Shown here piece after piece: positions 3 through 19,310 of a stretch of DNA of 64,000 nucleotides. Within the stretch, counting starts at the first letter, position 1, and every line of letters starts with the position of its first letter. The stretch is taken from positions 224,001 through 288,000 of the forward strand of contig CBDDCX010000006.1 in the NCBI GenBank assembly GCA_965226375.1, in the 5' to 3' direction. A model generated the notes under the pieces. The model was not told the DNA's origin. It ran no database searches and was given only the letters and a program-made list of their open reading frames with translations. Origin of the DNA: Longimicrobiales bacterium. Lineage in GTDB: Bacteria > Gemmatimonadota > Gemmatimonadetes > Longimicrobiales > Gaopeijiaceae. A program made the position numbers and the translations under genes.

Positions 3-1001
3 AGGGACCAGAGCCGGTTGCTGGTGGTGCCGAGGGATGGTGGGCCGCTTCAGCATCGGGTGTTTTCGGATCTGGTCGATCTTATCGATCCCGGTGACGT
101 GCTTGTCGTGAACGAGACTCGGGTGGCTCCGGCCCGATTGCTGGGGCGGAAGCCTACTGGGGCGCCTTCGGAGGTGTTGCTGCTTCGGCCGTGGGGCGGG
201 GGAGGGGCTGCCTCCGCGCTCGATCCGGAGTCGGATGAGACGACCATTTGGGAGGCGCTGGTCCGGCCCGGCGGGAAGCTCAAGCCGGGGCGGGTGGTGA
301 ATGTCGCGCCGGGGTTCGATGTGGAGATCGTGGATGGGGCGCCGGGCGGTGGGCGGATCGTGCGGTTGGTCGTGGAAGGATCTGTGCGGGAGGCTCTTGA
401 GAATCACGGGCATGTGCCGTTACCGCCGTATCTGGGGCGGGAGGACGAGCCGCTGGATCGAGAGCGGTATCAGACTGTGTACGCCCGGGTGCCGGGGTCG
501 GTGGCTGCGCCCACCGCTGGGCTGCACTTCACGCCGGAGCTGCTACAGAAGATCGAGGCGAAGGGCGTGGAGCGGGTGGCCGTTACCCTGGACGTGGGGG
601 TGGGGACGTTCCGGCCGGTCGAGGTCGATGACCCGGCCGAGCATGATATGCACAGCGAGTCGTTTTTCGTTCCGGATGAGACGGCCGAGGTGATTAATGT
701 TGCGCGTAGGGAGGGGCGGAAGATTTGGGCGGTCGGCACCACTGTGGTGCGCACGCTCGAGAGTGCGGCGCGTGAGGGGGTGGTGGTTGGGGGGGGTGGG
801 GTGACGGAGCTGTTCGTTCGACCGGGCCACGCGTTTGGGGTGGTGGACGGGCTCGTTACGAACTTTCATTTGCCAAGGTCGACGCTTTTGATGTTAGTCG
901 CAGCGTTCGGCGGGTACGAGAGGGTGATGGAGGCTTATGGGGCGGCGGTTCTTGAGGGCTACAGGTTCTACTCGTACGGGGATGCGATGGTGGTGGGGTA
1001 G
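3..1001 (+). CDS. queA: S-adenosylmethionine:tRNA ribosyltransferase-isomerase (5' end outside window)
   Basis: Motifs VVNETRV, DRERYQTVYA, GSVAAPTAGLHFT, AVGTTVVRTLE, TNFHLPRSTLLML, YRFYSYGDAM; frame open to the window edge. Confidence 0.97.
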   Translation, partial: RDQSRLLVVPRDGGPLQHRVFSDLVDLIDPGDVLVVNETRVAPARLLGRKPTGAPSEVLLLRPWGGGGAASALDPESDETTIWEALVRPGGKLKPGRVVNVAPGFDVEIVDGAPGGGRIVRLVVEGSVREALENHGHVPLPPYLGREDEPLDRERYQTVYARVPGSVAAPTAGLHFTPELLQKIEAKGVERVAVTLDVGVGTFRPVEVDDPAEHDMHSESFFVPDETAEVINVARREGRKIWAVGTTVVRTLESAAREGVVVGGGGVTELFVRPGHAFGVVDGLVTNFHLPRSTLLMLVAAFGGYERVMEAYGAAVLEGYRFYSYGDAMVVG

Positions 1002-1068
1002 GGGGGGATGCCCTGGTCGCCTGACGCATGCAGGACGAGACCGGCGGTGCCGGGGTGATGTTCGCCCG

Positions 1069-2463
1069 GGTCAAGTCCCGAGTTGTGTGTAAAAGTGAGA
1101 GGAAGCTCCTCGATGCTTCTGTTAGGCTGCCTTGGCGACCTCCTTCGGTTCGAGAAGCGTGAGATCCAGGTAGCGACGTTCGCTCCAGGCCGCAGTAGTC
1201 CTTAGAGCAACCGCAGTGATGAGGCGGAGCGCGCTGGCTCGGTCGGGGAAGGCGCCGGCGCTCCGGATCCGACGCTTGATCTCGGTGTGCAGGCGCTCGA
1301 GGCTGTTCGTGGTGCGCAGTCGGGCCCAGTGGGGCTCGGGGAACGCGTAGAACTGGGTGGCGGCCGTGAAGCCCCGCTCAAGCACGTTGACTGCCTCGGG
1401 GAGCTCCTTGTGCCAGCGCGCCGTGATCTCGGCCAGGCGCTTCTTCGACTCAGCGAGCCCGGGGGCCCGGAAGACGGCGGCAACCTCGCGCGCCACACGC
1501 TTGCGCAGGCGATGCGGGACCTTGGCCAGCACGTTGCGTTGCAGGTGGACAGTACAGCGCTGGCAGCGCACCTCGGGCAGGAAGCGGCGCACCGCGGCTG
1601 CCAGGCCCGCGTGCTCATCCGCGATCACGAGCTGGACGCCGCTGAGACCACGCTCCAGGAGTTGCTCGAGGAGCTCCGACCAGCTGTTCTCCGATTCCTC
1701 AGGGCCCAGCGTGATGCCCAGGAGCCGGCGGTGGCCGTCCGGGCCCACGGCGTAGGCCACGAGCGCGCTCACGTTCTCGACCTTTCGGGCCCAGCGGGCA
1801 TCGAGGAACGTCGCGTCCAGGTACAGGTAGGGGTGGGCCCCCTCGATGGGTGCACTCCGCAGCGTTTGCACGCCCTCGTCGAGCCGCTTCGCGACCCGGC
1901 TCACCGTCGAGCGTCCCACGCGCTCACCCATGAGTGCCTCGGTCACGTCGCCCATCTTGCGCTGCGACACGCCGCTCACGTAGGCCTCCACCATCATCGC
2001 ATCGACTTCTTCACTCCTGCGCTGGTAGCGACCCATCACGTCGGCGGGCGAGCCGCCTTCCCGGCTGCGCGGGACCGTCACGTCGATCTGACCCAGGCTC
2101 GTAAGCAGGCGCCTCAGATACGTCCCGTTCCTGTGGCCCTTCCGGCTGCCGACCCGCTCGAATCGTCGCGCTCCGACCATCGCCTTCAACTCCTCCTCCA
2201 ACACCATCTCGAGCGTTAGCCGGATCGCGCCCTGAAACAGCGACTTCAAATCCTGACGCAGCTCGTCTTGCGTGGCCCGCTCAACTTCGACCATCTTTTC
2301 CATGAGGAAGCTCCTTGTTCCGGTTCCGACCTGCTCACGCAGGCCGGACTCCCGGGTTCATGTGATGATGAACAATTCACAAGGAGCTTCCTCTTTCTTT
2401 TCCGGGCTGTCCACCCTCCTCGGACGCCCTCACCCCCTTTTACACAATCTTAGTGACACTACC
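1069..2463 (-). mobile_element. IS256-family insertion sequence, copy A (1395 bp)
   Basis: Imperfect terminal IRs (GGTAGTGTCACTAAGATTGTGTAAAA / GGTCAAGTCCCGAGTTGTGTGTAAAA); 8-bp target duplication TTCGCCCG at 1061-1068 and 2464-2471. Confidence 0.95.
1122..2303 (-). CDS. IS256-family (mutator-type) DDE transposase
   Basis: RNG..R.L.T.LG, VPRSR, YLYLDA, VIADEH.GL, QRCTVH..RN, RTTNSLERLHTEIKRR motifs. Confidence 0.95.
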   Translation of the reverse strand: MEKMVEVERATQDELRQDLKSLFQGAIRLTLEMVLEEELKAMVGARRFERVGSRKGHRNGTYLRRLLTSLGQIDVTVPRSREGGSPADVMGRYQRRSEEVDAMMVEAYVSGVSQRKMGDVTEALMGERVGRSTVSRVAKRLDEGVQTLRSAPIEGAHPYLYLDATFLDARWARKVENVSALVAYAVGPDGHRRLLGITLGPEESENSWSELLEQLLERGLSGVQLVIADEHAGLAAAVRRFLPEVRCQRCTVHLQRNVLAKVPHRLRKRVAREVAAVFRAPGLAESKKRLAEITARWHKELPEAVNVLERGFTAATQFYAFPEPHWARLRTTNSLERLHTEIKRRIRSAGAFPDRASALRLITAVALRTTAAWSERRYLDLTLLEPKEVAKAA

Positions 2464-2527
2464 TTCGCCCGGGCGTCACACGGAAGCCCCGTGGAGTCGA
2501 GGGCGTGGAGCGACGGCGTCGCCCATT

Positions 2528-2818
2528 TCAAGGTCCCTCGCGGGGATCCGTCTGCGAGCGACCCGGGAGCGGCTCGTCCAGGGGACTCCGGATGCCTTGC
2601 AGCTGACGCTTCGAGACGTGGGTGTAGATCTCGGTCGTCTTCACGCTGGCGTGCCCGAGGAGCTCTTGGATGAGGCGCACGTCGGCGCCCGCCTCGTGGA
2701 GATGTGTGGCGAAGGTGTGTCGGAGGACATGAGGCGTGACGGGCTTGTTGATGCCCGCCCGCACGCGGGCGGCGGCCGTGATCTTCTGGACGCTCCGTGT
2801 GGTCAGATGGCGGCCCAC
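2528..2818 (-). pseudogene. 3' remnant of a tyrosine recombinase (integron-integrase-like C-terminus)
   Basis: Box II motifs HVLRHTFATHL, IQELLGH, catalytic Tyr in TTEIYTHV, C-terminal GIRSPLD; N-terminal two-thirds missing. Confidence 0.9.
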
Positions 2819-3049
2819 GAGGGCCCCGCGGGATTGCTAGTCGATTTGGAGCGGAACCAAGGATGCTCGGCCGCAACGACGAGGCAATCGAGTTCTTGAC
2901 CCAAGCCGATCCTGAAAGCGGCGGCCGTGATCTTCTGGACGCTCCGTGTTGCGCCCCGCGGGTGCTAGTCGATTTGGAGCGGAACCAAGGATGCTCGGCC
3001 GCAACGACGAGGCAATCGAGTTCTTGACCCAAGCCGATCCTGAAAGCGG
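2769..3049. repeat. Imperfect tandem duplication of the recombinase/TPR junction
   Basis: GCGGCGGCCGTGATCTTCTGGACGCTCCGTGT ... TGCTAGTCGATTTGGAGCGG...CCTGAAAGCGG occurs twice (about 2769-2921 and 2918-3049). Confidence 0.9.
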
Positions 3050-3806
3050 ATGGTTGCGAGGGTTTGATGAGTATTGGGTTCTTCTGACGCTGGCTTACCA
3101 CCAGCTCGGCGACTACGAGCGGGAACTCGAGGCTGTGGACCGCATGCTTCAGTTAAACCCGGAACGGTCTCGGATCGCCCTCGGGATCGAGATGGGTGTC
3201 TTGGCTGCCGAGGGACGCATCGAAGAACTTGGCACCCGTATTCCGGGACTTCTCCAATCTTACCACGGGGGTTCTACCGACGGGTTGTTCGATTGGTTTA
3301 CGGAGCTTCACTCCCACGGATATCCGGGCGCAGCCTCAAACTTGTTGGGCCGTGCCCTCGAATGGTTTGAGGACAGGCCTTCCGATTGGAGACGGGATCC
3401 CGGCCAATCCTTCGTATATGGGAACTTGCTCAGTCGCGCCGGACGTTGGGGCGAGGCGCAGGCAGTCCTAGAAGGCGTAGTGGCCGACACTCGTTTCACT
3501 GGCAAAGCGAACAGAATGGCCCTATTGGAGCTGGCGTATGTGTTGGCAAGCCAAGGTTACCGGAACCAAGCCTATAGGGCGGTCAGCCTAAGCCAATGGA
3601 ATGATATCGGAGTTCACACCTGGGTCGAGGCTGCTCTCGGTGAGCGGGAGCGAGCGATGGAGCTATTGCGTGAAATCCGAGCACAGAGGGATGGAGCAAA
3701 GGTGGATATGCTGGATATGCACGGCGGATATCTAAGCCTGCACCGGCTTGAATCGATGAGGGACTATCCGCCGTTTGTTGAGGAATTCCTCAGGCCAAAC
3801 GGGTAG
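2991..3806 (+). pseudogene. TPR-like helical-repeat protein, probably 5'-truncated (cassette 1)
   Basis: TPR-like segments (LAYHQLGDYERELEAV, GNLLSRAGRWGEAQAVL); 5' end runs into the scrambled junction. Confidence 0.65.
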
Positions 3807-4047
3807 CCGGCCCCGCACTGCCGCGTTCTCCTCCCGTGCTGTTCCGCTCGCAGAGGCCGAGCCCCACCCTCACGGTCGAACATCCGATTCCTTTTGAGGA
3901 TGATGTCGTCGGAATGCAGTCTGACGGAAGTCCGACGGAAGTCCTTTTCCCCCCTAGCATGGCACGCCCTTGCTCATGCAGCATGAGGTCTTTGATGGTC
4001 GAAGGATACGACTAGACTACGTGGCTGAGGTTGAGCAGCGTCACATC

Positions 4048-4203
4048 ATATAACACTGGGCCTCCGGCTCGGGCGGCCCCCGGCGACCCTCGACGCAACC
4101 GGCCCACGAGCGGTGTGCCGTGAATAAGGCGCTGGCGACAACATCCGTTGCGGGTTACCTGAACGTGGTCGACGGGCCGGTTCGGAGGCCCTGAACGTTA
4201 GAT
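4048..4203 (+). repeat. attC-like cassette recombination site 1
   Basis: ATATAAC-ACT-GGGCCTCCG-[side hairpin]-AACCGGCCC ... GGGCCGGTT-CGGAGGCCC-TGAAC-GTTAGAT; arms complementary; motif repeated at 5432, 6890 and 9020. Confidence 0.85.
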
Positions 4204-4245
4204 GACATCTCCGCTTAGGGGATGGCAGGGTGGAGAGGCCTTCTA

Positions 4246-4330
4246 TGTCAACGTATGACTTGCGTAAATACCAATCATGTGTCAAGTTATAACTTGCTAT
4301 CAGTCCTATGCATTGCAACCTATGGCTTTA
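4246..4330 (+). promoter_or_regulatory. Candidate operator repeats upstream of the mobile mystery A/B pair
   Basis: TGTCAACGTATGACTTGC (4246-4263) and TGTCAAGTTATAACTTGC (4280-4297, containing the perfect palindrome CAAGTTATAACTTG); weaker third copy near 4313; AT-rich context. Confidence 0.6.
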
Positions 4331-4334
4331 CACT

Positions 4335-4811
4335 ATGTCCGAACGTCCCGTTGATGTGATTGCGCGCCGGCAGCTCGACGAACGGCTGGCCAACATCCGC
4401 GCGGCAAGTGGCCTGTTTGAGCGCCCCCGTCGCGGGTGGATCGCGACGCTTCGACGGGCGCTGGGTATGCCTCAGGCTCACCTTGCCCACCGGATGCGCC
4501 TTTCGCGGCAGGCCATCAGCCAACTTGAGAAGCGAGAGGTCGACGGTTCTATCACACTCAGTGCCTTGGAACAGGCAGCGGAAGCACTCGGTGCGCGTGT
4601 CGTCTACGCTGTTGTCCCTGAGCGACCGCTTCTGGCCACGCTATCGGACCGCGCCTTGAAACTCGCGACTCGGATAACGGGCTCCGTCCGTCACACCATG
4701 CGGTTGGAGGACCAAGACCCTGGCTCGGACCTAGAACGTAGGACTCTCGATCTAGCTGCAAGCCTTATCGAGTCTCCGTCGCGGCTCTGGTCAGTGATTG
4801 ATGAGCGATGA
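4335..4811 (+). CDS. Mobile mystery protein A (XRE-type HTH; cassette 2)
   Basis: PRRGWIATLRRALGM..AHLA.RM.LSRQAISQLEKREVDGSITL, VYAVVP, HTMRLEDQ; overlaps the downstream Fic gene. Confidence 0.85.
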   Translation: MSERPVDVIARRQLDERLANIRAASGLFERPRRGWIATLRRALGMPQAHLAHRMRLSRQAISQLEKREVDGSITLSALEQAAEALGARVVYAVVPERPLLATLSDRALKLATRITGSVRHTMRLEDQDPGSDLERRTLDLAASLIESPSRLWSVIDER

Positions 4812-5379
4812 TCTTCCCACTGGGGCGACTCCGATCGACCCCGATGAGGCCGAAGGGCTAATACCCGAGCATGTGGCAACGCGTGGCGAACTCGACGAAC
4901 TTGAGGAGGCGAACATCCAAGAGGGCCTGGAATGGGCACTCAGGAGTTCGAGGGAGGTCTTGTCGGAGGAGTTCCTCTACGAATTGCATCGCCGCATGTT
5001 CGACGCGATTTGGACGTGGGCCAGAAAGGTACGATTGACCGACAAGAACATCGGGGTCGACAAGAACATCGTCCGAACCGAGGTGCGGAAGCTGATTGAA
5101 GACGCTCACTACTGGCGAGAGAACACGGTGTACGAACCCGACGAGTTGGCCGTTCGCTTTCATCACAGACTTGTCTCCATTCACCCCTTTCCAAACGGCA
5201 ACGGTCGTCACGCGAGGCTCATGGCTGACCTGCTCGCACGGGAACTGGGTGAGAGCGCCTTCTCATGGGGTGGAGTCAGCCTGACGAACACCTCGGATCT
5301 ACGTACCGAATACATCGGCGCCCTGCGCGCCGCGGACGGAGGGAACGTCGACCCACTTCTGAAGTTCGCTCGATCGTAG
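4801..5379 (+). CDS. Mobile mystery protein B (Fic/DOC family; cassette 2)
   Basis: N-terminus GATPIDPDEAEGLIP; Fic motif HPFPNGNGRHAR. Confidence 0.9.
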   Translation: MSDDLPTGATPIDPDEAEGLIPEHVATRGELDELEEANIQEGLEWALRSSREVLSEEFLYELHRRMFDAIWTWARKVRLTDKNIGVDKNIVRTEVRKLIEDAHYWRENTVYEPDELAVRFHHRLVSIHPFPNGNGRHARLMADLLARELGESAFSWGGVSLTNTSDLRTEYIGALRAADGGNVDPLLKFARS

Positions 5380-5431
5380 TGAGACCCTAGGAGGGGGCGT
5401 GCCCACGACTATGGCCGGAGTAGACGACGGC

Positions 5432-5584
5432 ACATAACACTGGGCCTCCGGCTCGGGTCGCCTCCGGCGCCCCTCGACCCAACCGGCCGCCACCGGGAGG
5501 GAGTTGGGACACGGAAGTGGTAGGTCGAAGAAGGCAGAAGTAACGAACGAAGGCGGGCCGGTTCGGAGGCCCTGAACGTTATCG
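5432..5584 (+). repeat. attC-like cassette recombination site 2
   Basis: ACATAAC-ACT-GGGCCTCCG...AACCGGCC ... GGGCCGGTTCGGAGGCCCTGAAC-GTTATCG. Confidence 0.85.
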
Positions 5585-5790
5585 GACAGCGCGAACGCGT
5601 ACGAGTGCGTCATGGGCACGGAGCTCCTGGAGTACGTCTGATTGAACCAGGACTTCGGTAGTGCTGGTCAAGAGCGTCGTCTTTGGAGTTGGTTGGGACC
5701 TAGCCTACGGTCTACTCCAATAACTACGATCTGAAACCAAGACTCGTTCTGTCTCCTTGCCGCTTGCTTGTAGCTGAAGGGATAAGGCCC

Positions 5791-6816
5791 ATGAGTCCAA
5801 GATTGGCACGTCACCTGCGGGACGCTGTCCCGGTCATCGTCTTCTTTGTGATTGTGGCGTTCACGTGGGACAATGTCAGGTGGTACCTAGCACCCGAGGA
5901 CGGGCCGCGGGAGCCCCTGACCGTCATGTTCATCGGGGTGCTCCTGGCCCTACCCCTGATCGCACTCGAGTCTTCGGCCCTGGCGGAGCGTTTTCGTCGT
6001 CGCCCGTTCTGGGCTGCGGTCCTTCTCAAGACCATGACCTACGTCGCCGCACTGGCCGCAATCATCCTGGGCGTGGGAATGATCTTAGGGAGACTCGAAG
6101 GCCGCACGTTCGACGAATTCGTCGAGGCCTTGCCGCGGAATCTCGCGGCGATGGCTACGGCGTTCCTTCTCTACATGGTGATCATCTTTCTACGGCAGCT
6201 GGACCGCCTTCTCGGGCCCGGCGTGTTGCTGCGCTACGTCACCGGTCGGTACCACCGTCCGCGGCGAGAGCAGCGGGTCTTCATGTTCGTCGACATCACG
6301 AGTTCTACCGAACTCTCCGAGCGTCTCTCGCTCGAGGCCTATTACGGGCTGGTCAACGATTTCTTCCACGACGTGTCAAGGCCGGTGTTGGATACGCGCG
6401 GCGAGATCTACCAATACGTGGGCGACGAAGTCGTAATCACGTGGAAGCTCGACCAGGGAGTCAAAGACGCCAACTGCGTCCGGGCGTTCTTCCAGATCGA
6501 TGCAGCGGTCCGCGCGAACGCCGACCGGTACCTGACGCGGTACGGGGCCGTGCCCGATTTCAAGGCCGGTCTGCACTCGGGTGAGGTGATCGCGGCAGAA
6601 ATGGGAGATCTCAAAAAGGAGATCGTGTTCAACGGTGAGACGTTGAACGTGACGGCGCGGATTCAGGGGGAATGCAATCGTCTTGGTCGACGACTTCTGG
6701 CGTCCCGCTCCCTCCTCGACCGCCTCGACCTCCCCGCTGAACTGACCGCGGAGCCCATGGGTGCGGTCGCGCTGCGAGGGGTTGGAGAGCCGACAGAGAT
6801 CGTTGCTTTCTCATAG
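5791..6816 (+). CDS. Membrane-anchored class III adenylate/guanylate cyclase (cassette 3)
   Basis: Several N-terminal TM segments; FMFVDITSST, YQYVGDEV, KAGLHSG, GETLNVTARIQ motifs. Confidence 0.9.
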   Translation: MSPRLARHLRDAVPVIVFFVIVAFTWDNVRWYLAPEDGPREPLTVMFIGVLLALPLIALESSALAERFRRRPFWAAVLLKTMTYVAALAAIILGVGMILGRLEGRTFDEFVEALPRNLAAMATAFLLYMVIIFLRQLDRLLGPGVLLRYVTGRYHRPRREQRVFMFVDITSSTELSERLSLEAYYGLVNDFFHDVSRPVLDTRGEIYQYVGDEVVITWKLDQGVKDANCVRAFFQIDAAVRANADRYLTRYGAVPDFKAGLHSGEVIAAEMGDLKKEIVFNGETLNVTARIQGECNRLGRRLLASRSLLDRLDLPAELTAEPMGAVALRGVGEPTEIVAFS

Positions 6817-6889
6817 CGAGCCGCCGATTGTGACAGGCCCCTTGGATGGGGAATCCGGTGGCTGGCGAGCTGTCTGGGGCAGCGCCGTC

Positions 6890-7043
6890 AGCTAACATTG
6901 GGCCTCCGGCTCGGGCCATTCGGCCCTCGACGCAACCGGCCGCGGTTACCGTGTGGGCTTCGGTCGAAGGATGTGGCGCTAGACCTGAAGGAGCAGTATT
7001 GAACGACACAGATGGGCCGGTTCGGAGGCCCTGAACGTTAGCC
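6890..7043 (+). repeat. attC-like cassette recombination site 3
   Basis: AGCTAAC-ATT-GGGCCTCCG...AACCGGCC ... GGGCCGGTTCGGAGGCCCTGAAC-GTTAGCC. Confidence 0.85.
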
Positions 7044-7559
7044 GACAACCTTAGTCAGACGAATGCGGTGAGGAGGTAGATCGAGAATGCCTATGACCGA
7101 GGGACAGCTCGCGCTCATGATCATCGACGTGCAGGAGGGGATGTTCAACATCCCAGAAGCTGTCGTTCATGAACCCGAAGCGTTCTTGTCGCGCGTCTCC
7201 GGGCTGGTCGCGGACGGCCGCTCATCTGGCGTTCCAGTGATTTACATCCAACACCTTGGCGCGCCAGGACATCCGCTCGAACCCGGGACCGAGGGGAGCC
7301 GGATCCACCATGCGATCGCGCCGATAGCGGGCGAGCGGGTGATCCAGAAACGGGAGTCGGACGCCTTCCTAGGCACGAGCCTTCAGGCCGAGCTCGAGGA
7401 GTTGGGAGTAACAGGCCTCGTAGTGTGCGGGATGCAGACGGAGTACTGCGTGGACACGACGTGTCGCCGCGCCCACGGGCTCGGTTACAAGGTGTTTAGC
7501 GCCCCCGATTTCTCTGGACAGTAGATTGGCAAAGACAGCGGGTCCAGAGAGAAAGGGAC

Positions 7560-7922
7560 GTGATGGCCCAGAAGCCGAGGGAGAACAAGGCGACCGCAGG
7601 TCGTGAGAAGGTACCCGAGCGGTGGAGTGCCCAGCAGAAAACGGAGGTGGTGCTGCGCCTGCTACGGGGTGAGGACCTGGTGGAGGTCAGCCGCGAGGTA
7701 CAGGTCTCACCGCCGGAGCTGGAGGAATGGCGGCGGGTGTTCCTGGAGACCGGTCAGCAGGGACTGAGACGCCGGGGCCGAGACCCTGGAGAACGGGAGC
7801 TGACCCGGACCCGGGCGAAGCTGGGAGAGTTGACGATGCGACTGGAGCTTGCGAGAGAACTCCTGGAAAAAAGGGGGTACGGGGACGAGCTGGAGAAGCT
7901 CTTGAAGCGCGGACGCGGGTGA
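7560..7922 (+). CDS. IS transposase OrfA (HTH)
   Basis: RWSAQQKTEVVLRLLRGE..EVSRE....ELEEWR HTH followed by a coiled coil. Confidence 0.8.
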   Translation: MMAQKPRENKATAGREKVPERWSAQQKTEVVLRLLRGEDLVEVSREVQVSPPELEEWRRVFLETGQQGLRRRGRDPGERELTRTRAKLGELTMRLELARELLEKRGYGDELEKLLKRGRG

Positions 7923-8805
7923 GTCCGGGGACAGGGCGGCTCTACCCTCTGACGATGATCTGCGAGGTCTGGCGGGTGGGGCGCTCGACGGTCTACGCGG
8001 CCCGAGATCGAGAAGAGAGCGACGGGCCGGCAGGGCTGAAGAAGCGCGGACCGAAGACGAAGCTGAGCGACGAGGAGTTGGTGGAGGAGATCCGACAGGT
8101 GCTGAAGGAGAGCGACTTCCTGGGCGAAGGCCACCGGAAGGTCCGGGCCCGTCTGAGAGCCAAGGGGATCGGTGTGGGCAAGAACCGCGTGCTGCGGCTG
8201 ATGCGGGAGAATGGGCTGCTGGCCCCCGTACGGCGCGGAAAGCACCCGCGTGGGGACCGGAGCCACAGCGGCCGGATCACGCGACGGATGTGCCGAACGA
8301 GCTGTGGGGTACGGACGCGACGCGGTTCTACACGAAGGAGGATGGGTGGTGCTGGTTCTTCGTGGCGGTGGATCACTGCATCACAGACGTGGTGGGCTGG
8401 CACGTGGCGAAGAAGGGCGATCGGTGGGCAGCGCTCGAGCCGATCCGCCAGGGTGTACGAACCCACATGGACGGCTACGCGCCCAAGATCGCTCTGGGGC
8501 TCGGCCTACGGCACGACTGGGGCCCTCAGTACACCGCCCATCAGTTCCAAGGAGAGCTGGCCTGGCTCGGGATCCGCTCGACGGCCTCGTACGTAGGAGA
8601 GCCGGAGTGCAACGGCGTCGCGGAACGCTTCATGCGGACGCTGAAGGAAGAGTGCCTGTACCTCCACGACTTCGAGAGCCTCGAGGAGGCCAGGCAGGAG
8701 ATCGATGCGTTCATCGAACGCTACAACCGCGGGTGGCTCCTGGAGCGGCACGGGTATCGGACCCCGGCCCAGGTCCGTCAGGAGCTCACCCTGAAGGCGG
8801 CATGA
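7919..8805 (+). pseudogene. IS transposase OrfB (rve integrase core), frameshifted near 8280
   Basis: GHRKVRARL, NRVLRLMRENGL in one frame; PNELWGTD, LRHDWGPQY, NGVAERFMRTLKEE in the next frame. Confidence 0.85.
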
Positions 8806-9019
8806 TTAGGCCGCCGACTTGTCCAGGAAACCGGAACCGGTACAGGTGTTCCTAGCTCAGGACGCCCATACAACGGTGGACGCCGAATCATTGACAGCCG
8901 CGCAGATCATCGCGCACCACAACGAAACCCTAGGTAGCGCGTATGTGACGCTATGCCACGCGGAGGAAGCGTTCGCGTAGGTTGGGAGGTGTCGGATCGG
9001 CTGAGCGGCCACGGTCATC

Positions 9020-9141
9020 GTTTAACACTGGGCCCCCGGCTCGGGGCGCTGTAGGCGGCCCTCGACCCAACCGGCCCAAACGAGCGGGCTTCCCTCAGCG
9101 CATGTGGCTGCGGTTGCGGAGCACTACGTTCGTCAGGGCCG
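9020..9141 (+). repeat. attC-like site 4, right arm truncated or degenerate
   Basis: GTTTAAC-ACT-GGGCCCCCG-GCTCGGG...CCCTCGACCC-AACCGGCCC; right arm stops after GGGCCG (9136-9141). Confidence 0.75.
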
Positions 9142-9279
9142 CTCCGCTCGATCCGAGGGTGTTACCGGGAGTTGCCCGGTCTCCACCTGCCCCAGTATTG
9201 TCCTGCCGTGGATCCGCCCACAGGCCGCGCGCCTGTCGGATCCCTGAAAGCGGATCGCCACTCGAGAAGGAAGACGGTC

Positions 9280-11851: not shown

Positions 11852-14800
11852 TCAAGCCGCCTTCCCCGCCGCCGCCCCTCCATACCGCAGGAACAACACG
11901 GGCACCACCACCATGTTCAGGGCCAAGGACGTGAGGATGCCACCCAGCACCACGACCGCCATCGGACTCTGGATCTCGTTGCCCGGCTCTCCCCCGGACA
12001 AGGCCAGGGGTAGTAGGGCGAGTCCTGCGGTGAGCGCCGTCATCATGATCGGGCTCAGCCGCTCCATCGAGCCCTGGATCACCGCTCCGCGAAGTTGCGC
12101 GCCCTGCTCCAGTAGGTGGTTGTAGTGGCTCACCATGAGAATCCCGTTCCGGATGGCGATTCCGAAGAGTGTGATGAAGCCCACCAGCGTCGCGACGTTG
12201 AGCACGCCGTCCGTAATCCACACGGCGAGCACGCCGCCCACCAGGGCCAGCGGCAGATTCACCATGACGAGGAGAACCTGCCGTAGGGATCCGAACTCGA
12301 CGAAGAGAAGCAGGAAGATGGCCACCAGGGACAGCAGGCTCATGAGCCCGATGGTCTGGGTGGCCTCACCCGCGGCCTCGAACTGACCTCCGTACTCGAT
12401 GTAGTAACCCGACGGCAGGTCGACCTCGGCCCGCACTCGCTCCCGAATGTCCTCCACGACGCTGCCCACATCCCGGCCGGCCACATTGGACTGGACCACG
12501 ATCTTGCGTTGAACGTCCTCGCGGGAGATGGAGTTGGGACCCAGGTCGAAGCGGACGTCGGCCAGCGTCCTCAATGTGACGAACGATCCGACTGGGGTGC
12601 TGACCCGCGCATCGCGGACGGCCTCGAGGCTCCCCCTGTACTCCGGCGCGAAGCGGACCACGAGGTCGAACGCCCGTCTCTCCTCGAGGATCTGAGAGAC
12701 CGCCTCTCCGGCGAACGCGACGTCGATGGCTTCAGCCAGGTGTGCGGGTGTTACGCCGAAGCGCGCCATGGAAGGCCGGTTCATGTCCACGCGGATTTGG
12801 GGGACGTCCGCCTGTTGTTCCATGGCGACATCCACCGTGCCTTCGACTTCACCAGCGAGTGCCTCCACCTCCTTGGCCAGTCGTCTCAGCTCGTAGAGGT
12901 CGGGTCCGAAGATCTTCACTGCGATGCTCGCCCGCGTTCCCGACAGCATGTGGTCGATCCGGTGGCCGATGGGCTGACCGATCGTGATCTGGGTGCCCGG
13001 CACGGCGGCCAGATCTGCGCGGATCTCCTCCAGGATCACGTCGTAGTCGTAGTCGGCCAGGTCGAGGCGCGCGTCGATCTCGGCGGCGTTGACCCCCTGT
13101 GCGTGTTCGTCCAGCTCGGCTCGGCCGGTGCGGCGAGCCGTCTCCACGACGGCGGGGTGAGCGAGCAGAATCTGCTCGATCCTCTGACCCAGGGCGTCGG
13201 ACTCGTCGAGTGACGTTCCGGGAATGGTCAGCGCGCTGATCACCAGTGAGCCTTCCTGGAATTCCGGCAGAAAGGAGCGGCCCAGGAACGGGAGCACCGC
13301 CAACGATCCGATCGCAAGCGCTGCGGCTGAGGTCATGACCAGCCCTGGATGCTGGAGAACGCGCTCCAACGTCGCCGCGTAAGCCCGCTTGAGTCTTCTG
13401 ACGATCCAGGTCTCCTCGTCCTTCTCAACGGCCTTCGATCGAGACAGGAGATAGGCGGACAGAGCCGGTGTGACGGTGAGCGCCACGACCAGAGACGCGA
13501 GGATCGAGACGATGTAGGCCAATCCGAGGGGGCGAAGCATGCGGCCCTCGATGCCCGAGAGGAAGAGGATCGGTACGAACACCACGATGATGATGAGCGT
13601 GGCGATGACGATGCTGGTCAGGATCTCCTTGGACGCGTCGAAGACCACCGTGTTGACCGGTCGTCGTTCCTCCGGGGGCACCTGACCATTCTGTCTCAGG
13701 CGCCTGAACACGTTCTCGACCACAATCACGGCATCGTCTACGAGTGCCCCGATCGCGATGGCCATGCCGCCCAAGGTCATCGTGTTGATCGTGATGTCCA
13801 TCATCTTCAGCACGAACACCGCGGTGATCAGCGAGAGCGGGATGGCCACCACCGAGATGAAGGTCGTGCGGACGCTCCAGAGGAACAGGAACAGGATGAG
13901 GATGACGAGGAGGGCTCCGTCGCGCAGCGCCGACATGACGTTGTCCACGGCCGTGGATATGAAGTCGGCTTGGCGGAAGATGCCGCGGTTGATCTCCATC
14001 CCGGCCGGGAGACTCGCCTCGATGTCGGCCAGCTCCTGGTCGATCCGTTCTGTGAGTTCCAGGGTGTTCGTGTTCGGTTGTTTCTGCACCGTGAGGATGA
14101 CGGCACGGTTGGCGTTGGCCGATCCGTCACCGAGACGGGTGGCGGCCCCAATGGTGACTCGGGCTACGTCACCGATGGTGACGGGTGTGCCCTCTCGCAC
14201 GGCCAACACGGTCTGCGCGATGTCGTCGAGGTCCTGAACACGTCCGGTCGCACGGATCAGGTACTCCTGTCCCCGGTCCATGAACACTCCACCGGACGCG
14301 TTCACGTTGGACCCTTCGGCCGCCCGCAACACGTCTTCGAGTGTGACGTCGAAGGCCTCCAGCCGAAGAGGGTCTACCAGGATCTGGTACTGCTTGACCT
14401 CGCCCCCGAGGGGCACGACCTGGGCGACTCCGGGCACCGCCAAGAGCCGGCGGCGAATCGTCCAGTCCGCCACGGAACGCATGTCCATGGGGGACACGGA
14501 GGCGTCCCCCGTCACCGCGATGAGCATGATCTCGCCCATGATGGACGAGATCGGGGCCAATGTGGGGGTCCCCACCCCGCCGGGGAGGCCCGCCGATACC
14601 AGCTGAAGCTTCTCGTTCACGATCTGGCGGGCCCGGAAGATGTCGGTGCCCCAATCGAACTCCACCCAGACGATGCTGATCCCTTGTGAAGTGGCGGAGC
14701 GGACCCGGCGCACGCCGGTAGCGCCGTTCACCGCCGTCTCGACCGGGAAGGTGACGAGCGTCTCCACCTCTTCGGGTGCCATGCCGTGGGCTTCCGTGAG

Positions 14801-14953
14801 GATCGTCACGGTGGGGGCCGTCAGATCCGGAAAGACGTCCACGGGCATGCGGACAGCGGTAATCGTTCCGGCCACCAGAAGAAGGCCGGCGGCGACCATC
14901 ACCAAGAGGGGATTGTCGATGGACCAGCGAATCAGACGGTCTAACATCGTCAT
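11852..14953 (-). CDS. Heavy-metal efflux RND permease (CzcA/CusA family)
   Basis: MPVDVFPDL, EEVETLVTFPVE, GALVDDAVIVVEN, ERLSPIMMTAL; 1033 aa. Confidence 0.95.
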   Translation of the reverse strand: MTMLDRLIRWSIDNPLLVMVAAGLLLVAGTITAVRMPVDVFPDLTAPTVTILTEAHGMAPEEVETLVTFPVETAVNGATGVRRVRSATSQGISIVWVEFDWGTDIFRARQIVNEKLQLVSAGLPGGVGTPTLAPISSIMGEIMLIAVTGDASVSPMDMRSVADWTIRRRLLAVPGVAQVVPLGGEVKQYQILVDPLRLEAFDVTLEDVLRAAEGSNVNASGGVFMDRGQEYLIRATGRVQDLDDIAQTVLAVREGTPVTIGDVARVTIGAATRLGDGSANANRAVILTVQKQPNTNTLELTERIDQELADIEASLPAGMEINRGIFRQADFISTAVDNVMSALRDGALLVILILFLFLWSVRTTFISVVAIPLSLITAVFVLKMMDITINTMTLGGMAIAIGALVDDAVIVVENVFRRLRQNGQVPPEERRPVNTVVFDASKEILTSIVIATLIIIVVFVPILFLSGIEGRMLRPLGLAYIVSILASLVVALTVTPALSAYLLSRSKAVEKDEETWIVRRLKRAYAATLERVLQHPGLVMTSAAALAIGSLAVLPFLGRSFLPEFQEGSLVISALTIPGTSLDESDALGQRIEQILLAHPAVVETARRTGRAELDEHAQGVNAAEIDARLDLADYDYDVILEEIRADLAAVPGTQITIGQPIGHRIDHMLSGTRASIAVKIFGPDLYELRRLAKEVEALAGEVEGTVDVAMEQQADVPQIRVDMNRPSMARFGVTPAHLAEAIDVAFAGEAVSQILEERRAFDLVVRFAPEYRGSLEAVRDARVSTPVGSFVTLRTLADVRFDLGPNSISREDVQRKIVVQSNVAGRDVGSVVEDIRERVRAEVDLPSGYYIEYGGQFEAAGEATQTIGLMSLLSLVAIFLLLFVEFGSLRQVLLVMVNLPLALVGGVLAVWITDGVLNVATLVGFITLFGIAIRNGILMVSHYNHLLEQGAQLRGAVIQGSMERLSPIMMTALTAGLALLPLALSGGEPGNEIQSPMAVVVLGGILTSLALNMVVVPVLFLRYGGAAAGKAA

Positions 14954-14957
14954 CCCC

Positions 14958-16493
14958 TCAGTGTGTGTGGCCGCCGGCGAAGTCGCCGCCGGACAGTGAG
15001 GCGAGTCGCACCTGATAGGCGCCTACGGTCACAGCCATCTCCCCCAGGCTGAGCCCTGCCAGCACCTGGGTTCGGGTGCCGTCGCGTGCCCCCAGCGTGA
15101 GGATTCGGCGTACGAAGGTCTCACCGCCGGTCTGCACGTAGGCCACCGGAGTCCCGTTGTCATCCAGGATGGACTCGTTGGGCATGGCGATGCCCCGCAC
15201 CACCCCGCCGATGGGCACAGTCGCTCGGGCCAACTGGCCGTACGTGAACCGTTCGCCGGCCTCTTTCACCTCGAACACGACGGGTACGGTCCGCGTCTGA
15301 GGGTTCATGACGTTCCCCGCCGACAGAAGTCGGGATGTGTGGAAGACATCGTCCGAGTCCTCCGTGGTGAACGTGGCCGGTGCGGCGTCGTCGGCCTGCG
15401 CTGCCGTCGCGGCAGACATCTGGACCCGGAGCCACGCCGTCCGGGGATCCACGATGGTGAAGAGCGGCTCGCCCGCGTCCACTCGTCCGCCGGGCAGGAA
15501 GCTGCGCCTGGCGATCACCCCCGAGATGGGAGCCCGCAGACTCAGCCGGTAGGCGCCGTCGGTCGCCCCGCCCATCGCATCCAGTTCGGCACGTGCGATC
15601 TCCAGGTCGTGACGGGCCTCTTCGAGGCGCTTGCCGGCGATGGCCCCGGCGGCAAAGAGCCGCTCGCTCCGCTCCACCTCTCGTTGGAGTCGCTCCACCT
15701 GCCCGCGAGACTGCGCGAACCCGCCGCCCTGAGCGGTGGGAGCGAGGATGACGAGGATCTGACCCTCCCGGATCCGCTCTCCTACCGATGGGGCGTCGCG
15801 GTTCTCATCTGCGGGTGCGATCCCGTCCACCAGCGCGCTCACTTCGACCAGCGCACCATCGGGCGGCACGACCTCGGCGGGACTCGTGACGGTCCGCTGC
15901 ACATCGTGCTCCGCCACCGCGTGGACTTCGAAGGGGATCACCCACTGCTGTTCCTTCAAGAAGCCGATCCCGCCTTCATCTTCAGCCGCCTCCACGCCCA
16001 GAGCCTCCTCGAGGCTCGCGTGAACCCGCACCTGGGTGAGAACATGCCGGCTGTTCACCTGGGGGCTCGTGAGGGCCAGCTCCACACGGTAGACGCCGGG
16101 CTGGCGCAGCACCGGATCCAAGAGGAAGATCCCGTCCCGAGCCGGAGCATCGACCTGGAACGTCTGGGCCCCGCCCTGGTCACTGATGAAGTCGACCGTC
16201 AGGGTTCCCGAGCGAATGGGCTTGAAGTCCTCCATGTCGGTCAGGTGGATGGCCCAGTTACCGGTCCGCTCCCCTGCGACCACGAGGGGATACTCCAGGA
16301 ACAGCTCAGTGGAGTCGTTCCACTGAGTGACCACGACCGCGCCGATCTCCGGTTCCAGCGCGGCCTCCGTGTTGGTGCAGGCGCTGGCCGCTAGAACCGC
16401 CGCGCTCGCCCCGGCGATCGTCATCATGGACCGGGCACCAACTCTCGCGGCGATCATCGCCGTGAACCGGGAAACAACTCTCCTGGCGATCAT
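14958..16493 (-). CDS. RND efflux periplasmic adaptor (CzcB/CusB-like), lipoprotein
   Basis: Lipobox LAASAC, ELFLEYP, LRAPISGVI, TRTVPVVFEV, C-terminal GGHTH. Confidence 0.9.
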   Translation of the reverse strand: MIARRVVSRFTAMIAARVGARSMMTIAGASAAVLAASACTNTEAALEPEIGAVVVTQWNDSTELFLEYPLVVAGERTGNWAIHLTDMEDFKPIRSGTLTVDFISDQGGAQTFQVDAPARDGIFLLDPVLRQPGVYRVELALTSPQVNSRHVLTQVRVHASLEEALGVEAAEDEGGIGFLKEQQWVIPFEVHAVAEHDVQRTVTSPAEVVPPDGALVEVSALVDGIAPADENRDAPSVGERIREGQILVILAPTAQGGGFAQSRGQVERLQREVERSERLFAAGAIAGKRLEEARHDLEIARAELDAMGGATDGAYRLSLRAPISGVIARRSFLPGGRVDAGEPLFTIVDPRTAWLRVQMSAATAAQADDAAPATFTTEDSDDVFHTSRLLSAGNVMNPQTRTVPVVFEVKEAGERFTYGQLARATVPIGGVVRGIAMPNESILDDNGTPVAYVQTGGETFVRRILTLGARDGTRTQVLAGLSLGEMAVTVGAYQVRLASLSGGDFAGGHTH

Positions 16494-17815
16494 CGTCCGT
16501 TCTCCGTCGAAGTCGTCTCTCGTGCGGGGGGCGTCTCGAAGCCACCCACCGCCCGTGCGAGGTCATAGTAGGCGGTCCACAGGTCCGCCTTGAGTCGTGC
16601 CTCGGCGGCTTTAGCGTCCCAGAGGGCCTCGGCGGCGTCCAGCAGTTGCACCAGATCCATCTCCCCGGCGTCGTATGCCACCTGGGCGATCTGTAGGAGG
16701 TCCGGGTACTCGTCCAACCCGCTCTCACCGAGGAGTTCGTTGAGGCCGCGGAGGCTTCGGTAGGACTCGATCGCTCCTCGCAGATCGTTCTCGATCTGGC
16801 GTGAGGTCAGTGCGAGACGCTCCTCGGCGGAGCGGACCTGCGCCTCTGTGGCCTCTACGGCCCCAGCGCTCCGATCGAACAGGGGAAGAGGGAGGGACAG
16901 ACCCAGATAAAGGCCGCGAAAGCCGTCGGACTGCCGCTTGGAGCCGCCTATGGCGGTGATGTCGGGAATCCGTTCCGCTCGAGCGAGACGGACCCCCGCC
17001 CGAGCCGCCTCCACCTCTGCGCGCGCCGCCGCGATCTCCTGTCGCCTGGCGACCGCACCGTCGAGCAGCAAGTCCAGGGCCGGCTCGGAGGGTGAATCAC
17101 CGAGTGGGTCCGCTGGGGCCGCCTCTGCGGACTCTGCCTCGGGGAGAATCAAGATGGCCAAGGCTCGTCGGGTGGCCGACACGGCCAATCGAGCCTCGGC
17201 CAGCAGGCTCACGTACCGTGTGCGCTCCACGACCAGGCGCCGGAGGTCGAAGAGGGAGATGTCTCCTTCCGCCTCTCGCACCACGGCCCGTTGGGCACCC
17301 TGCCGGAAGACCTCGGTGACTCGCTCGGTCACGGCGAGGCGCGTCTCCGCCGTGGCCGCTTCTACGAAGGCGTGTTTCACGGCGAAGCCGAGGCGTGCAC
17401 TGTCGGCTCGCAACCGTGCCTCAGTGGCTCCTAGGACCCGATTCGCCACCGCACTTCGGGCGTTGCGCTCACCTGGAAGCTCGAAGCGTTGGCTGAGGTT
17501 CACATAGGTCTCGGAGTAGTCTTGGCCATCCCTGGACAGCGGTTCGTGTGTGACGCTGGCCGTCGGGTTTGGAAAGGCAGTCGCCTGCCGGGCGAGGCCC
17601 GCCGCCTCCGCCCGCCTGCTGCGTGCGAGGCGCAGTTCCAGGTTGTTCGTGGCGAAGAGCTGGAGGGCCTCCTCCATGCTCACGCGCCTCGTGGCTTCCT
17701 GGGCGGCTACCGTGGTGGGCCGGCTACCGAGGGTTGTCACCAGCAGAAGGGCGGCCACCAGCAGTGGGGTCTTGGTTGTATCGTGCACGAGCATGACTCC
17801 GGTATGTGTGCCCAT
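16490..17815 (-). CDS. TolC/CzcC-family outer membrane efflux protein
   Basis: Signal peptide; FPNP, LSLPLPLFDR, AYDAGEMDLVQLLDA motifs; first gene of the efflux operon. Confidence 0.9.
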   Translation of the reverse strand: MGTHTGVMLVHDTTKTPLLVAALLLVTTLGSRPTTVAAQEATRRVSMEEALQLFATNNLELRLARSRRAEAAGLARQATAFPNPTASVTHEPLSRDGQDYSETYVNLSQRFELPGERNARSAVANRVLGATEARLRADSARLGFAVKHAFVEAATAETRLAVTERVTEVFRQGAQRAVVREAEGDISLFDLRRLVVERTRYVSLLAEARLAVSATRRALAILILPEAESAEAAPADPLGDSPSEPALDLLLDGAVARRQEIAAARAEVEAARAGVRLARAERIPDITAIGGSKRQSDGFRGLYLGLSLPLPLFDRSAGAVEATEAQVRSAEERLALTSRQIENDLRGAIESYRSLRGLNELLGESGLDEYPDLLQIAQVAYDAGEMDLVQLLDAAEALWDAKAAEARLKADLWTAYYDLARAVGGFETPPARETTSTENGR

Positions 17816-17904
17816 TCGGCGCCACCTCGGTGAAGGGGGTGCCGACGCATCGGTTGTCTTGGGGCAATACGGATCGCGTTCCGGGCGCCGGAAGACGCTC
17901 GGAA

Positions 17905-19148: not shown

Positions 19149-19310
19149 CGGGAGTGGATCTCCGGCAGGGGAATCATCTGTAGATCCTACGACGAAACAG
19201 TCTAGGGCTGTCTGGGGCGGTAGCGCCACGCACGGATTGCGTTTCCATGAAAAGATACTATAATATTGTATTAGAACATATAATACTGTCTAGGCACTGT
19301 GGATACTGTC

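What the first reader, a model, noticed from the sequence alone, without database searches (positions are those of the whole stretch)
4048..9141. Cassette sites predict a three-way-junction single-stranded fold with a covarying side hairpin
Seen: the left arm is TAAC-N3-GGGCCTCCG-[25-30 nt]-AACCGGCC and the right arm is GGCCGGTT-CGGAGGCCC-TGAAC-GTTA. The right arm pairs contiguously, so the left-arm insert is extruded. That insert is itself a hairpin whose sequence changes while most pairing is kept: GGGCGGCC/GGCGACCC, GGGTCGCC/GGCGCCCC, GGGCC/GGCCC, GGGGCGCT/GGCGGCCC. Canonical attC sites have single extrahelical bases at this position, not a branch. The ends extend to GTTA-N3-GAY in most copies. 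Inference: the recombination substrate is recognised by structure and has a different architecture from attC.
Basis: partly seen in the sequence, partly recalled or inferred. Interest (0 to 1): 0.8.

Follow-up and report, generated by a model that had tools for sequence, protein, structure and literature searches.

The report
Branched cassette sites of atypical integron
These repeats are the cut-and-paste sites of a gene-cassette array built like an integron, but each folds into a three-armed DNA junction without the usual flipped-out bases, and the neighbouring recombinase lacks the part that normally reads those bases and carries a junction-binding-like domain instead.

Summary
In detail: three complete sites and one with a decayed right arm. 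The four window copies do not show covariation; the larger set does. Among 305 related sites, outer stem, side hairpin and inner stem keep pairing while sequence changes (side-hairpin pairs significant across families, not within the window's family alone). The bottom strand is favoured: G·A tandems flank the hairpin in 263 of 305 sites (top strand 3). The sites behave as cassette borders: a site's right core matches the next site's left core (84 vs 16 pairs), and attI-like junctions match the first cassette. The recombinase beside these arrays lacks the 41-residue IntI insertion (I2) and usually has an N-terminal HARP-like domain. Twenty true IntI loci of the same class had no such site and mostly ordinary bulged attC sites; four near-complete genomes with branched arrays gave no IntI hit. 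In the window the recombinase is a C-terminal remnant and the array is decayed. Verdict: works like an integron but fails two defining tests. That HARP reads the branch is inference. Not found in 10 paper searches; this scan noted I2-less arrays, once with branched sites, on other genomes.

The parts
2528..2827 (-). C-terminal remnant of a tyrosine recombinase of the I2-less type, divergent from the array; the N-terminal part and attI are missing
   Evidence: PF00589 E 1e-22 and TIGR02249 107 bits, under its cut-off of 265; best matches are I2-less HARP recombinases (70%, 134 bits) against best IntI 59%, 95 bits; keeps the GAxxGRHL spacing of the I2-less group
2823..3049 (.). Direct duplication with 128-nt period at the joint between the recombinase remnant and the first cassette remnant
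   Evidence: absent from contigs of 3 of 4 runs laid (joint 2834 to 2963)
2946..3806 (+). TPR-repeat gene remnant, the tail of the first cassette (bounded by site S1)
   Evidence: Pfam TPR hits; the bases before S1 match the end of the kinase cassette that follows attI in G002
4048..4203 (+). Site S1 (156 nt): left core 4048-4054, outer stem 4058-4066 with 4183-4191, side hairpin 4067-4096, inner stem 4097-4104 with 4175-4182, right core 4197-4203; the bottom strand is the predicted folded substrate
   Evidence: model score 113 bits (a training sequence)
4308..5379 (+). Cassette cargo: mobile mystery protein A (HTH) and B (Fic domain)
   Evidence: TIGR02612 and TIGR02613 over their cut-offs
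5432..5584 (+). Site S2 (153 nt): outer stem 5442-5450 with 5564-5572, side hairpin 5451-5480, inner stem 5481-5488 with 5556-5563
   Evidence: the bottom strand folds as a three-way junction
5764..6816 (+). Cassette cargo: membrane-anchored adenylate/guanylate cyclase-like protein
   Evidence: PF00211 E 1.6e-7
6890..7043 (+). Site S3 (154 nt): outer stem 6900-6908 with 7023-7031, short side hairpin 6909-6933, inner stem 6934-6941 with 7015-7022
   Evidence: bottom-strand fold z -2.96, three-way junction
7087..8980 (+). Cassette cargo: isochorismatase-family gene split by an IS3-family element (about 7497-8843)
   Evidence: PF00857 and rve hits; the frame resumes after the element; contigs of 3 of 4 runs skip the element (joint 7489 to 8844)
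9020..9166 (+). Site S4: intact left arm (9020-9076) and decayed right arm ending in GTTA at 9161-9164; last site of the array
   Evidence: model score 41 bits
1122..2303 (-). IS256-family transposase flanking the element on the recombinase side
   Evidence: NF033543 over its cut-off

Best explanation
The repeats are attC-like cassette recombination sites of an integron-like system whose recombinase lacks the I2 insertion. SHOWN by sequence comparison: each cassette runs from the GTT core of one site to the GTT core of the next; cassettes dock at an attI-like GTT beside the recombinase gene, which is co-oriented or divergent; the sites keep three helices, with an unbulged 8-9 bp outer stem and a side hairpin on the arm where canonical attC carries its extrahelical bases; asymmetries favour the bottom strand; the adjacent enzyme is a SAM_4 + PF00589 tyrosine recombinase 41 residues shorter than IntI across the I2 region, usually with an N-terminal HARP-like domain. 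INFERRED: the bottom strand folds as single-stranded DNA and is cleaved at the conserved AAC as in integrons; the branch takes over the job of the extrahelical bases (marking strand and orientation, holding the outer-stem monomers away from cleavage so that only one strand is exchanged and replication resolves the junction); and the HARP-like domain is what binds the branch (my estimate for this last step: 0.45). In this window the system is a decayed relic.
For: Cassette signature: right core against the next site's left core 4.03 of 5 matches, against its own 2.63, random 2.39; 84 vs 16 of 115 pairs in 49 loci, p 3e-12. attI-like junction matching the first site at 4 or more of 6 bases in 7 of 11 loci, and by eye in L036 and G025. 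Helices on a sequence-only alignment of 80 sites: outer stem 96% paired, inner stem 98%, side hairpin 78% with 5 of 6 pairs changed on both sides, 0 of 500 shuffles as high. Tree-aware null on 137 anchored rows: hairpin pairs h2, h3, h5 at E 0.01 or less. Two-base against three-base G·A motif agrees on both hairpin arms in 230 of 239. Bottom strand: GA or GNA flanks 263 of 305 (top 3, shuffled 20); C-GNA-G loops 97 vs 7 of 237. Partner enzyme: all 6 recombinase hits in site-first loci are of this short type; 10 of 18 enzyme-first loci have model hits against 0 of 20 IntI loci; 15 of 21 IntI loci have bulged attC sites; G211, G238, G050 and G139 (1-9 contigs, 92-97% complete) carry arrays and are not among the 77 IntI-positive genomes. 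HARP: 9 of 24 N-terminal domains hit PF07443, best PDB match is the SMARCAL1 HARP domain, E 0.0012, and the profile retrieves HARP-bearing SNF2 helicases.
Against: No recombination was measured, and contigs of four runs showed no clean excision joint at a GTT. The window's own three junctions do not show the cassette signature (2, 3, 3 of 5 to the next site; 4, 2, 4 to their own). Within the window's GGGCCTCCG family alone (75 rows) no pair reached significance (best E 0.58). RNAalifold on the sequence-only alignment recovered the outer and inner stems but not the side hairpin. Nearest-neighbour folding favours the bottom strand only slightly (all three helices in 127 vs 110 of 237). Outer-stem pairing was a search criterion for most sites, so its covariation is partly built in. 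Six G238 sites can also be drawn with one extra base at the spacer edge. 4 of 11 loci showed no matching attI. The fold search did not single out HARP (Z 5.4, tied with eIF1). The window's genome also holds a true IntI and a HARP-less I2-less recombinase elsewhere. The loci are related, so p-values overstate.
Confidence: 0.8

Rival explanations
1. The system is as described, but the side hairpin is not read by the enzyme. It is a fixed part of the variable terminal structure that helps the bottom strand fold, and strand choice comes from the asymmetric spacer.
For: Canonical attC sites of the same class carry similar small hairpins in their terminal structure. For two canonical sites, deleting the extrahelical bases hardly changed bottom-strand recombination (PMC5027507, passage). 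HARP-less, I2-less enzymes (G335, G297) head arrays with a different multi-branched site, so HARP is not needed for cassette arrays as such.
Against: The branch point is fixed directly after the 8-9 bp stem (insert 27-31 nt in 252 of 305), the stem ends in G in 292 of 305, and the G·A motif and junction bases are kept across families whose stems differ, in both the 150-nt and the 87-nt size class. Such conservation of position and shape fits a contact surface.
Confidence: 0.3
2. The sites are unusual attC sites used in trans by an ordinary IntI, and the short recombinase is a passenger.
For: The window's genome has an IntI over the TIGR02249 cut-off on another contig; G002, G251 and G294 also have one; bulge-less attC can recombine with IntI1 (PMC5027507, passage).
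Against: Those three genomes keep their IntI next to ordinary bulged sites. None of 20 IntI loci has a branched site. Four near-complete genomes with branched arrays have no IntI hit at E 1e-60. attI-like junctions sit within 110-310 nt of the short recombinase.
Confidence: 0.06
3. The enzyme recombines the sites as double-stranded DNA, like other I2-less tyrosine recombinases, and the inverted repeats are just paired binding sites.
For: I2 is reported as necessary for cassette capture and single-strand recombination (PMC7790495, passage), and this enzyme lacks it.
Against: The arms lie about 130 nt apart with a variable spacer; stems change sequence freely while keeping complementarity; partner sites share little beyond GTT; one-strand features (G·A tandems, GNA loops, a conserved A/C opposition at core position 11 that is T·G on the bottom strand, 209 and 220 of 237) have no meaning in a duplex.
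Confidence: 0.07
4. The repeats are structured RNAs, terminators or REP-like elements, or they fold as a simple linear hairpin.
For: Top strands of S2 and S3 fold linearly in the single-sequence prediction. The loop of long sites is purine-rich on the top strand. RNA expression was not tested.
Against: No Rfam match in the window at gathering scores. The linear helix is 67.7% paired with few two-sided changes, against 98% and 78% for the branched helices. The favoured strand is the one opposite to the cargo genes. Neither reading explains the core-matching of neighbouring sites or attI.
Confidence: 0.04

Closest known systems
Canonical integron attC sites (attCaadA7, Vibrio cholerae repeats)
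   Same: AAC and GTT cores, unpaired central spacer, paired L stem, variable terminal part, bottom-strand purine and G·T bias, place between co-oriented genes, cassette-type core matching.
   Different: No extrahelical base in the L stem; a conserved hairpin branches off right after 8-9 bp on the arm that would carry those bases; the spacer is shorter on the left than on the right arm (mostly 3-5 against 5-8 nt); core complementarity extends to about 10 bp; most sites are 145-158 nt, above the 57-141 bp given in PMC5027507. Branches in known attC are described only as a variable feature of the terminal structure (PMC2727003, PMC5027507, passages).
Integron integrases (IntI1, VchIntIA PDB 2A3V, TIGR02249)
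   Same: SAM_4 + PF00589 architecture; VchIntIA is the best PDB match (E 3e-44); groups with IntI apart from XerC/D in a quick tree (support 99); sits beside an attI-like GTT, divergent or co-oriented.
   Different: Lacks the insertion (70-74 residues from the KDR motif to HxxRHSFA against 111-116); forms a separate clade from IntI; most members carry an N-terminal HARP-like domain.
'Integron-like' subgroup of simple tyrosine recombinases (Smyshlyaev et al. 2021, PMC8138268)
   Same: [quoted passage not shown]
   Different: The passage calls the insertion essential for integron function and links no cassette arrays or branched sites to the I2-less members. The appendix was not read.
HARP domains of SMARCAL1 and related SNF2 helicases (PF07443, PDB 4O66)
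   Same: [quoted passage not shown]
   Different: Here it is fused to a tyrosine recombinase; most single hits are under the Pfam cut-off; DNA binding of this domain is untested.

Membership tests
Integron (IntI / attI / attC) | Tyrosine recombinase with the IntI-specific insertion (I2, patch III) | tested here: not met
   70-74 against 111-116 residues across the region; query 260-284 spans VchIntIA 173-239. The window remnant starts after this region; it is assigned by similarity and spacing.
Integron (IntI / attI / attC) | attI site with a GTT crossover next to the recombinase gene | tested here: met
   7 of 11 loci match the first site's core at 4 or more of 6 bases, plus L036 and G025 by eye; missing in the window.
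Integron (IntI / attI / attC) | Array of co-oriented cassettes whose two ends reconstitute one site | tested here: met
   84 vs 16 of 115 consecutive pairs; not evident in the window's own three junctions.
Canonical attC | RYYYAAC and GTTRRRY cores with an unpaired central spacer | tested here: met
   AAC and GTT invariant in 80 of 80 aligned sites (a selection criterion); spacer present but asymmetric; the RYYY part is only loosely kept.
Canonical attC | Two or three single extrahelical bases in the L stem | tested here: not met
   79 of 90 model hits outside the training set have no extra base in the stem and 3 have one on the left-core arm; 6 G238 sites allow one at the spacer edge.
Canonical attC | Recombination of the folded bottom strand with a single strand exchange | not testable with these tools
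   Only indirect strand asymmetries.
Integron (IntI / attI / attC) | Pc promoter driving the cassettes; SOS control of the integrase | not tested
   No promoter or LexA-box scan was run.
HARP domain (PF07443) | Sequence profile match | tested here: inconclusive
   9 of 24 members hit at E 0.1 or better (best 9.7e-6), L080 18.8 bits under the cut-off of 25; PDB 4o66 E 0.0012; 9 of 20 picked profile hits carry HARP, 8 of them SNF2 helicases.
HARP domain (PF07443) | Fold | tested here: inconclusive
   Model pLDDT 85; no Foldseek match at E 0.001; best Z 5.4-5.5 shared by aIF1/eIF1, CASTOR and the XPB N-terminal domain (rmsd 2.2, 55 aligned), UvsW Z 4.9.
Known structured RNA (Rfam) | Match at gathering score | tested here: not met
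   0 matches in the window.

The most novel reading that the evidence does not exclude
A second, independent solution to single-strand cassette recombination: a recombinase clade beside IntI that never had, or lost, I2 uses a fused HARP-like domain to read a three-way DNA junction with a sheared-G·A hairpin, in place of I2 reading flipped-out bases. Cassette shuffling would then not depend on I2, and IntI-type and HARP-type arrays in one genome would be two separate cassette pools.
Probability: 0.45. Interest if true: 0.92.

Novelty: new variant of a known kind. Interest (0 to 1): 0.8.

Why it matters
Integrons are defined and detected by the I2 insertion and by bulged attC hairpins; I2 is held to be the innovation that made single-strand recombination possible, and intermediates are said to be lacking (PMC7790495, PMC9024848, passages). 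A cassette system with neither I2 nor extrahelical bases makes that claim directly testable with one enzyme and one site in a standard conjugation assay. It offers a possible ancestor or parallel route for integron evolution, and it implies gene-capture arrays that IntI-based annotation would not call. It also names a concrete protein-DNA pair (HARP-like domain and three-way junction) that could serve as an orthogonal structure-specific recombination tool.

Tried and rejected
Rfam at gathering scores: nothing. Single-sequence folds: weak z-scores and mixed folds, not decisive. RNAalifold on the MAFFT alignment did not return the side hairpin; the hairpin families are one column out of register there. 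My first covariation run had an offset error in the outer and inner stem columns; only its motif-class table and loop tally are used, and one search is the corrected run. The 'branched' column was counted from sites found outside the IntI loci, so its zeros for IntI loci are not a test; searches are the tests (one search flagged 2 IntI-side sites, both bulged on reading). Contigs of four runs showed no cassette-excision joint at a GTT; contigs drop rare forms, so this is no evidence of inactivity. Fold searches for the N-terminal domain were inconclusive. A Bacteroidota plasmid homolog (L367) had no model hit within 10 kb on either side. The Burkholderia and Mycobacterium pattern hits (L088, L092) gave no model hit and are treated as chance. 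The careful tree did not finish; the quick tree is cited. The paper on the HARP structure was not held, so the likeness of HARP to the XPB and UvsW N-terminal domains is recalled, not read. Ten paper searches listed no description of branched attC sites or of I2-less cassette integrases; the library lacks most subscription papers, and no supplements were read (the appendix of PMC8138268 may bear on the I2-less members).
Full report
Observation. The window holds three complete repeats, S1 4048-4203, S2 5432-5584 and S3 6890-7043, each TAAC-N3-GGGCCTCCG-insert-AACCGGCC-loop-GGCCGGTT-CGGAGGCCC-TGAAC-GTTA, with inserts of 30, 30 and 25 nt. A fourth, S4 from 9020, has the left arm and a decayed right arm. 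The right-arm 18-mer occurs 3 times against 0.08 expected, the genome has no further copy, and a sequence-free finder returns only S1-S3 in 4.2 Mb. There is no Rfam match. The differences between the four hairpins mostly make mismatches, so the window does not show covariation on its own, and single-sequence folds are weak (z -0.55 to -2.96).

Surroundings. The sites separate co-oriented genes: a TPR remnant, mobile mystery proteins A and B, a cyclase-like gene and an isochorismatase split by an IS3-family element. Upstream, on the other strand, lie a 96-codon C-terminal remnant of a tyrosine recombinase and an IS256. Contigs of 3 of 4 public runs lack the IS3 element and the 128-nt duplication at the recombinase joint. 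The array is decayed: the N-terminal part of the recombinase and attI are gone.

The site family. A finder that asks for the cores, a perfect outer stem and an inner stem, but not for a hairpin, gave 305 distinct sites, 199 of the window's GGGCCTCCG family and 106 others with many stem sequences (loci fetched for IntI and Xer were left out of this scan). The outer stem is 8-9 bp in 268 and ends in G in 292; the insert is 27-31 nt in 252; total length is near 150 nt or near 87 nt.

Is the fold real? On a sequence-only alignment of 80 bottom strands (3 window sites and 77 of 103 representatives) the outer stem is 96% paired, the inner stem 98% and the side hairpin 78%, with 8 of 9, 8 of 8 and 5 of 6 pairs changed on both sides and 0 of 500 shuffles as high. 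The linear rival helix is 67.7% paired with few two-sided changes. With my own tree-aware null on 137 distinct anchored rows (from 239 of the 305 sites; the rest were dropped for unclean geometry or motif class), hairpin pairs h2, h3 and h5 reach E 0.01 or less and h4 0.15. Against this: in the window's family alone (75 rows) the best E is 0.58; outer-stem pairing was a search criterion; and RNAalifold did not return the side hairpin from the sequence-only alignment. Among 90 covariance-model hits outside the training set, 79 have no extra base in the outer stem and the side hairpin is 91% paired (this alignment is fitted to the model).

Which strand? On the bottom strand the hairpin stem is flanked by GA/GA or GNA/GNA in 263 of 305 sites, on the top strand in 3, in shuffles in 20. 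The two- or three-base form agrees on both arms in 230 of 239. In the window's sites this is 5'-CGAG opposite 5'-CGAG, the block of tandem sheared G·A pairs solved by NMR in DNA hairpins (PMC10085684, passages; the three-base zipper form is recalled). C-GNA-G loops occur in 97 bottom and 7 top strands of 237, and core position 11 is an A/C opposition on top, T·G on the bottom (209 and 220 of 237). Nearest-neighbour folding, which scores such pairs poorly, leans only slightly the same way (127 vs 110 of 237).

Cassette behaviour. In 115 consecutive pairs from 49 loci, bases 5-9 of a right core match the next site's left core at 4.03 of 5, its own at 2.63 and random partners at 2.39 (84 better, 16 worse, 15 ties). 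This is what is expected if each unit once existed as a circle closed at GTT. An attI-like GTT 110-310 nt from the recombinase matches the first site at 4 or more of 6 bases in 7 of 11 loci and not in 4; L036 and G025 match by eye. The window's own three junctions do not show the signature. The loci are related, so the p-values overstate.

The enzyme. Starting from sites, recombinase hits were found in 6 loci (window, L036, L080, L085, L107, L149), all of one short type; three cover the I2 region and lack it, three are remnants assigned by similarity. Starting from the L080 protein, 51 of 301 genomes of the class match at E 1e-40. Of 18 such loci fetched, 10 have model hits (6 of them gave training sequences), 2 have another multi-branched site, 3 end within 330 nt of the gene and 3 show nothing. 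As control, 0 of 20 true IntI loci have a model hit and 15 of 21 have bulged attC sites, 99 in all. G002, G251 and G294 carry both systems, each with its own site type. G211, G238, G050 and G139 (1-9 contigs, 92-97% complete) have arrays of 5-16 sites and are not among the 77 genomes with an IntI hit at E 1e-60. Of 7 of 151 genomes with model hits, 6 have the short enzyme and 2 an IntI. The short enzymes have 70-74 residues from the KDR motif to HxxRHSFA against 111-116 in IntI; in a quick tree they form a clade (support 84) apart from IntI (99), both apart from XerC/D (99). The tallies and two IntI rows of the tree include the unpublished genomes G037 and G076; no conclusion depends on them.

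The N-terminal domain. 24 of these enzymes share a domain of about 75 residues. 9 of 24 hit Pfam HARP, the best PDB match is the SMARCAL1 HARP domain (E 0.0012), and among 20 proteins picked from the 150 best profile hits, 9 carry HARP (8 of them SNF2 helicases) and 8 are SAM_4 recombinases, six with three or four copies of the domain. Fold searches were inconclusive. [quoted passage not shown] HARP-less I2-less enzymes in G335 and G297 sit beside sites of another branched design; the G335 array shows the same cassette signature, so HARP goes with this site type rather than with cassette arrays in general.

Mechanism. The rivals are a hairpin that only helps folding (0.3, compatible with the system), IntI acting in trans (0.06), double-strand recombination (0.07) and RNA or linear fold (0.04).

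Comparison with what is known. Canonical attC has two or three extrahelical bases, a 5-6 nt spacer and branches only in the variable terminal part (PMC2727003, PMC5027507, passages). IntI is defined by its extra domain (PMC9024848, PMC9668308, passages), which is called necessary for cassette capture, with intermediates lacking (PMC7790495, passages). PMC8138268 (passages) notes that the insertion is not fully conserved in its integron-like subgroup. PMC8618304 (passages) lists Gemmatimonadota among phyla with integrons. This element meets the attI and cassette tests and fails the I2 and extrahelical-base tests: it works like an integron and is not a canonical one. Ten searches (listings and abstract starts, plus passages of the nine papers named in this report) showed no description; subscription papers and supplements were not seen. 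Unchecked notes of this scan report I2-less arrays in other phyla and once the same branched-site reading; I saw them after reaching my reading and did not test their genomes.

Verdict. Observation confirmed, interpretation supported and extended. New variant of a known kind; interest 0.8.

Noticed in passing
L310 (G335:C16) 687-8342 and L308 (G297:C1) 3195-5271: I2-less recombinases without the HARP-like domain head arrays of a different multi-branched site (mostly about 130 nt, some 170-200 nt); 12 or more sites in G335 with a clear cassette signature.
   Followed up: partly
P0046, P0050, P0057, P0061, P0064, P0148: SAM_4 tyrosine recombinases of 580-790 residues with three or four tandem HARP-like repeats; their genomic context was not examined.
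   Followed up: no
G000:C4:70278-71219 (L049) and G002:C3:1028977-1029906 (L048): Divergent true IntI genes on long branches, co-oriented with what follows; G002's lacks the second histidine of the HxxRH motif and heads bulged attC sites, while no attC was found near G000's.
   Followed up: partly
G011:C1 (six places, for example L311): Six copies of an I2-less recombinase region with internal stops, one next to an IntI piece; looks like a multi-copy mobile unit.
   Followed up: no
L098 6489-6647 against 7393-9027: Branched sites on both strands of one contig, facing apart.
   Followed up: no
window 4067-4096, 5451-5480, 9039-9068: The mismatched hairpin halves look shuffled between copies: the left half of S2 is the perfect partner of the right half of S1, which hints at recombination or conversion inside the hairpin.
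   Followed up: no
L304 (G139) 14033-19438: Many units of about 340 nt start to start, too short for a normal gene, between near-identical sites.
   Followed up: no
window 11852-17815: Heavy-metal or RND efflux operon on the minus strand (CusA/CzcA-like 1033 aa gene and neighbours, read from the translation; not searched against families).
   Followed up: no
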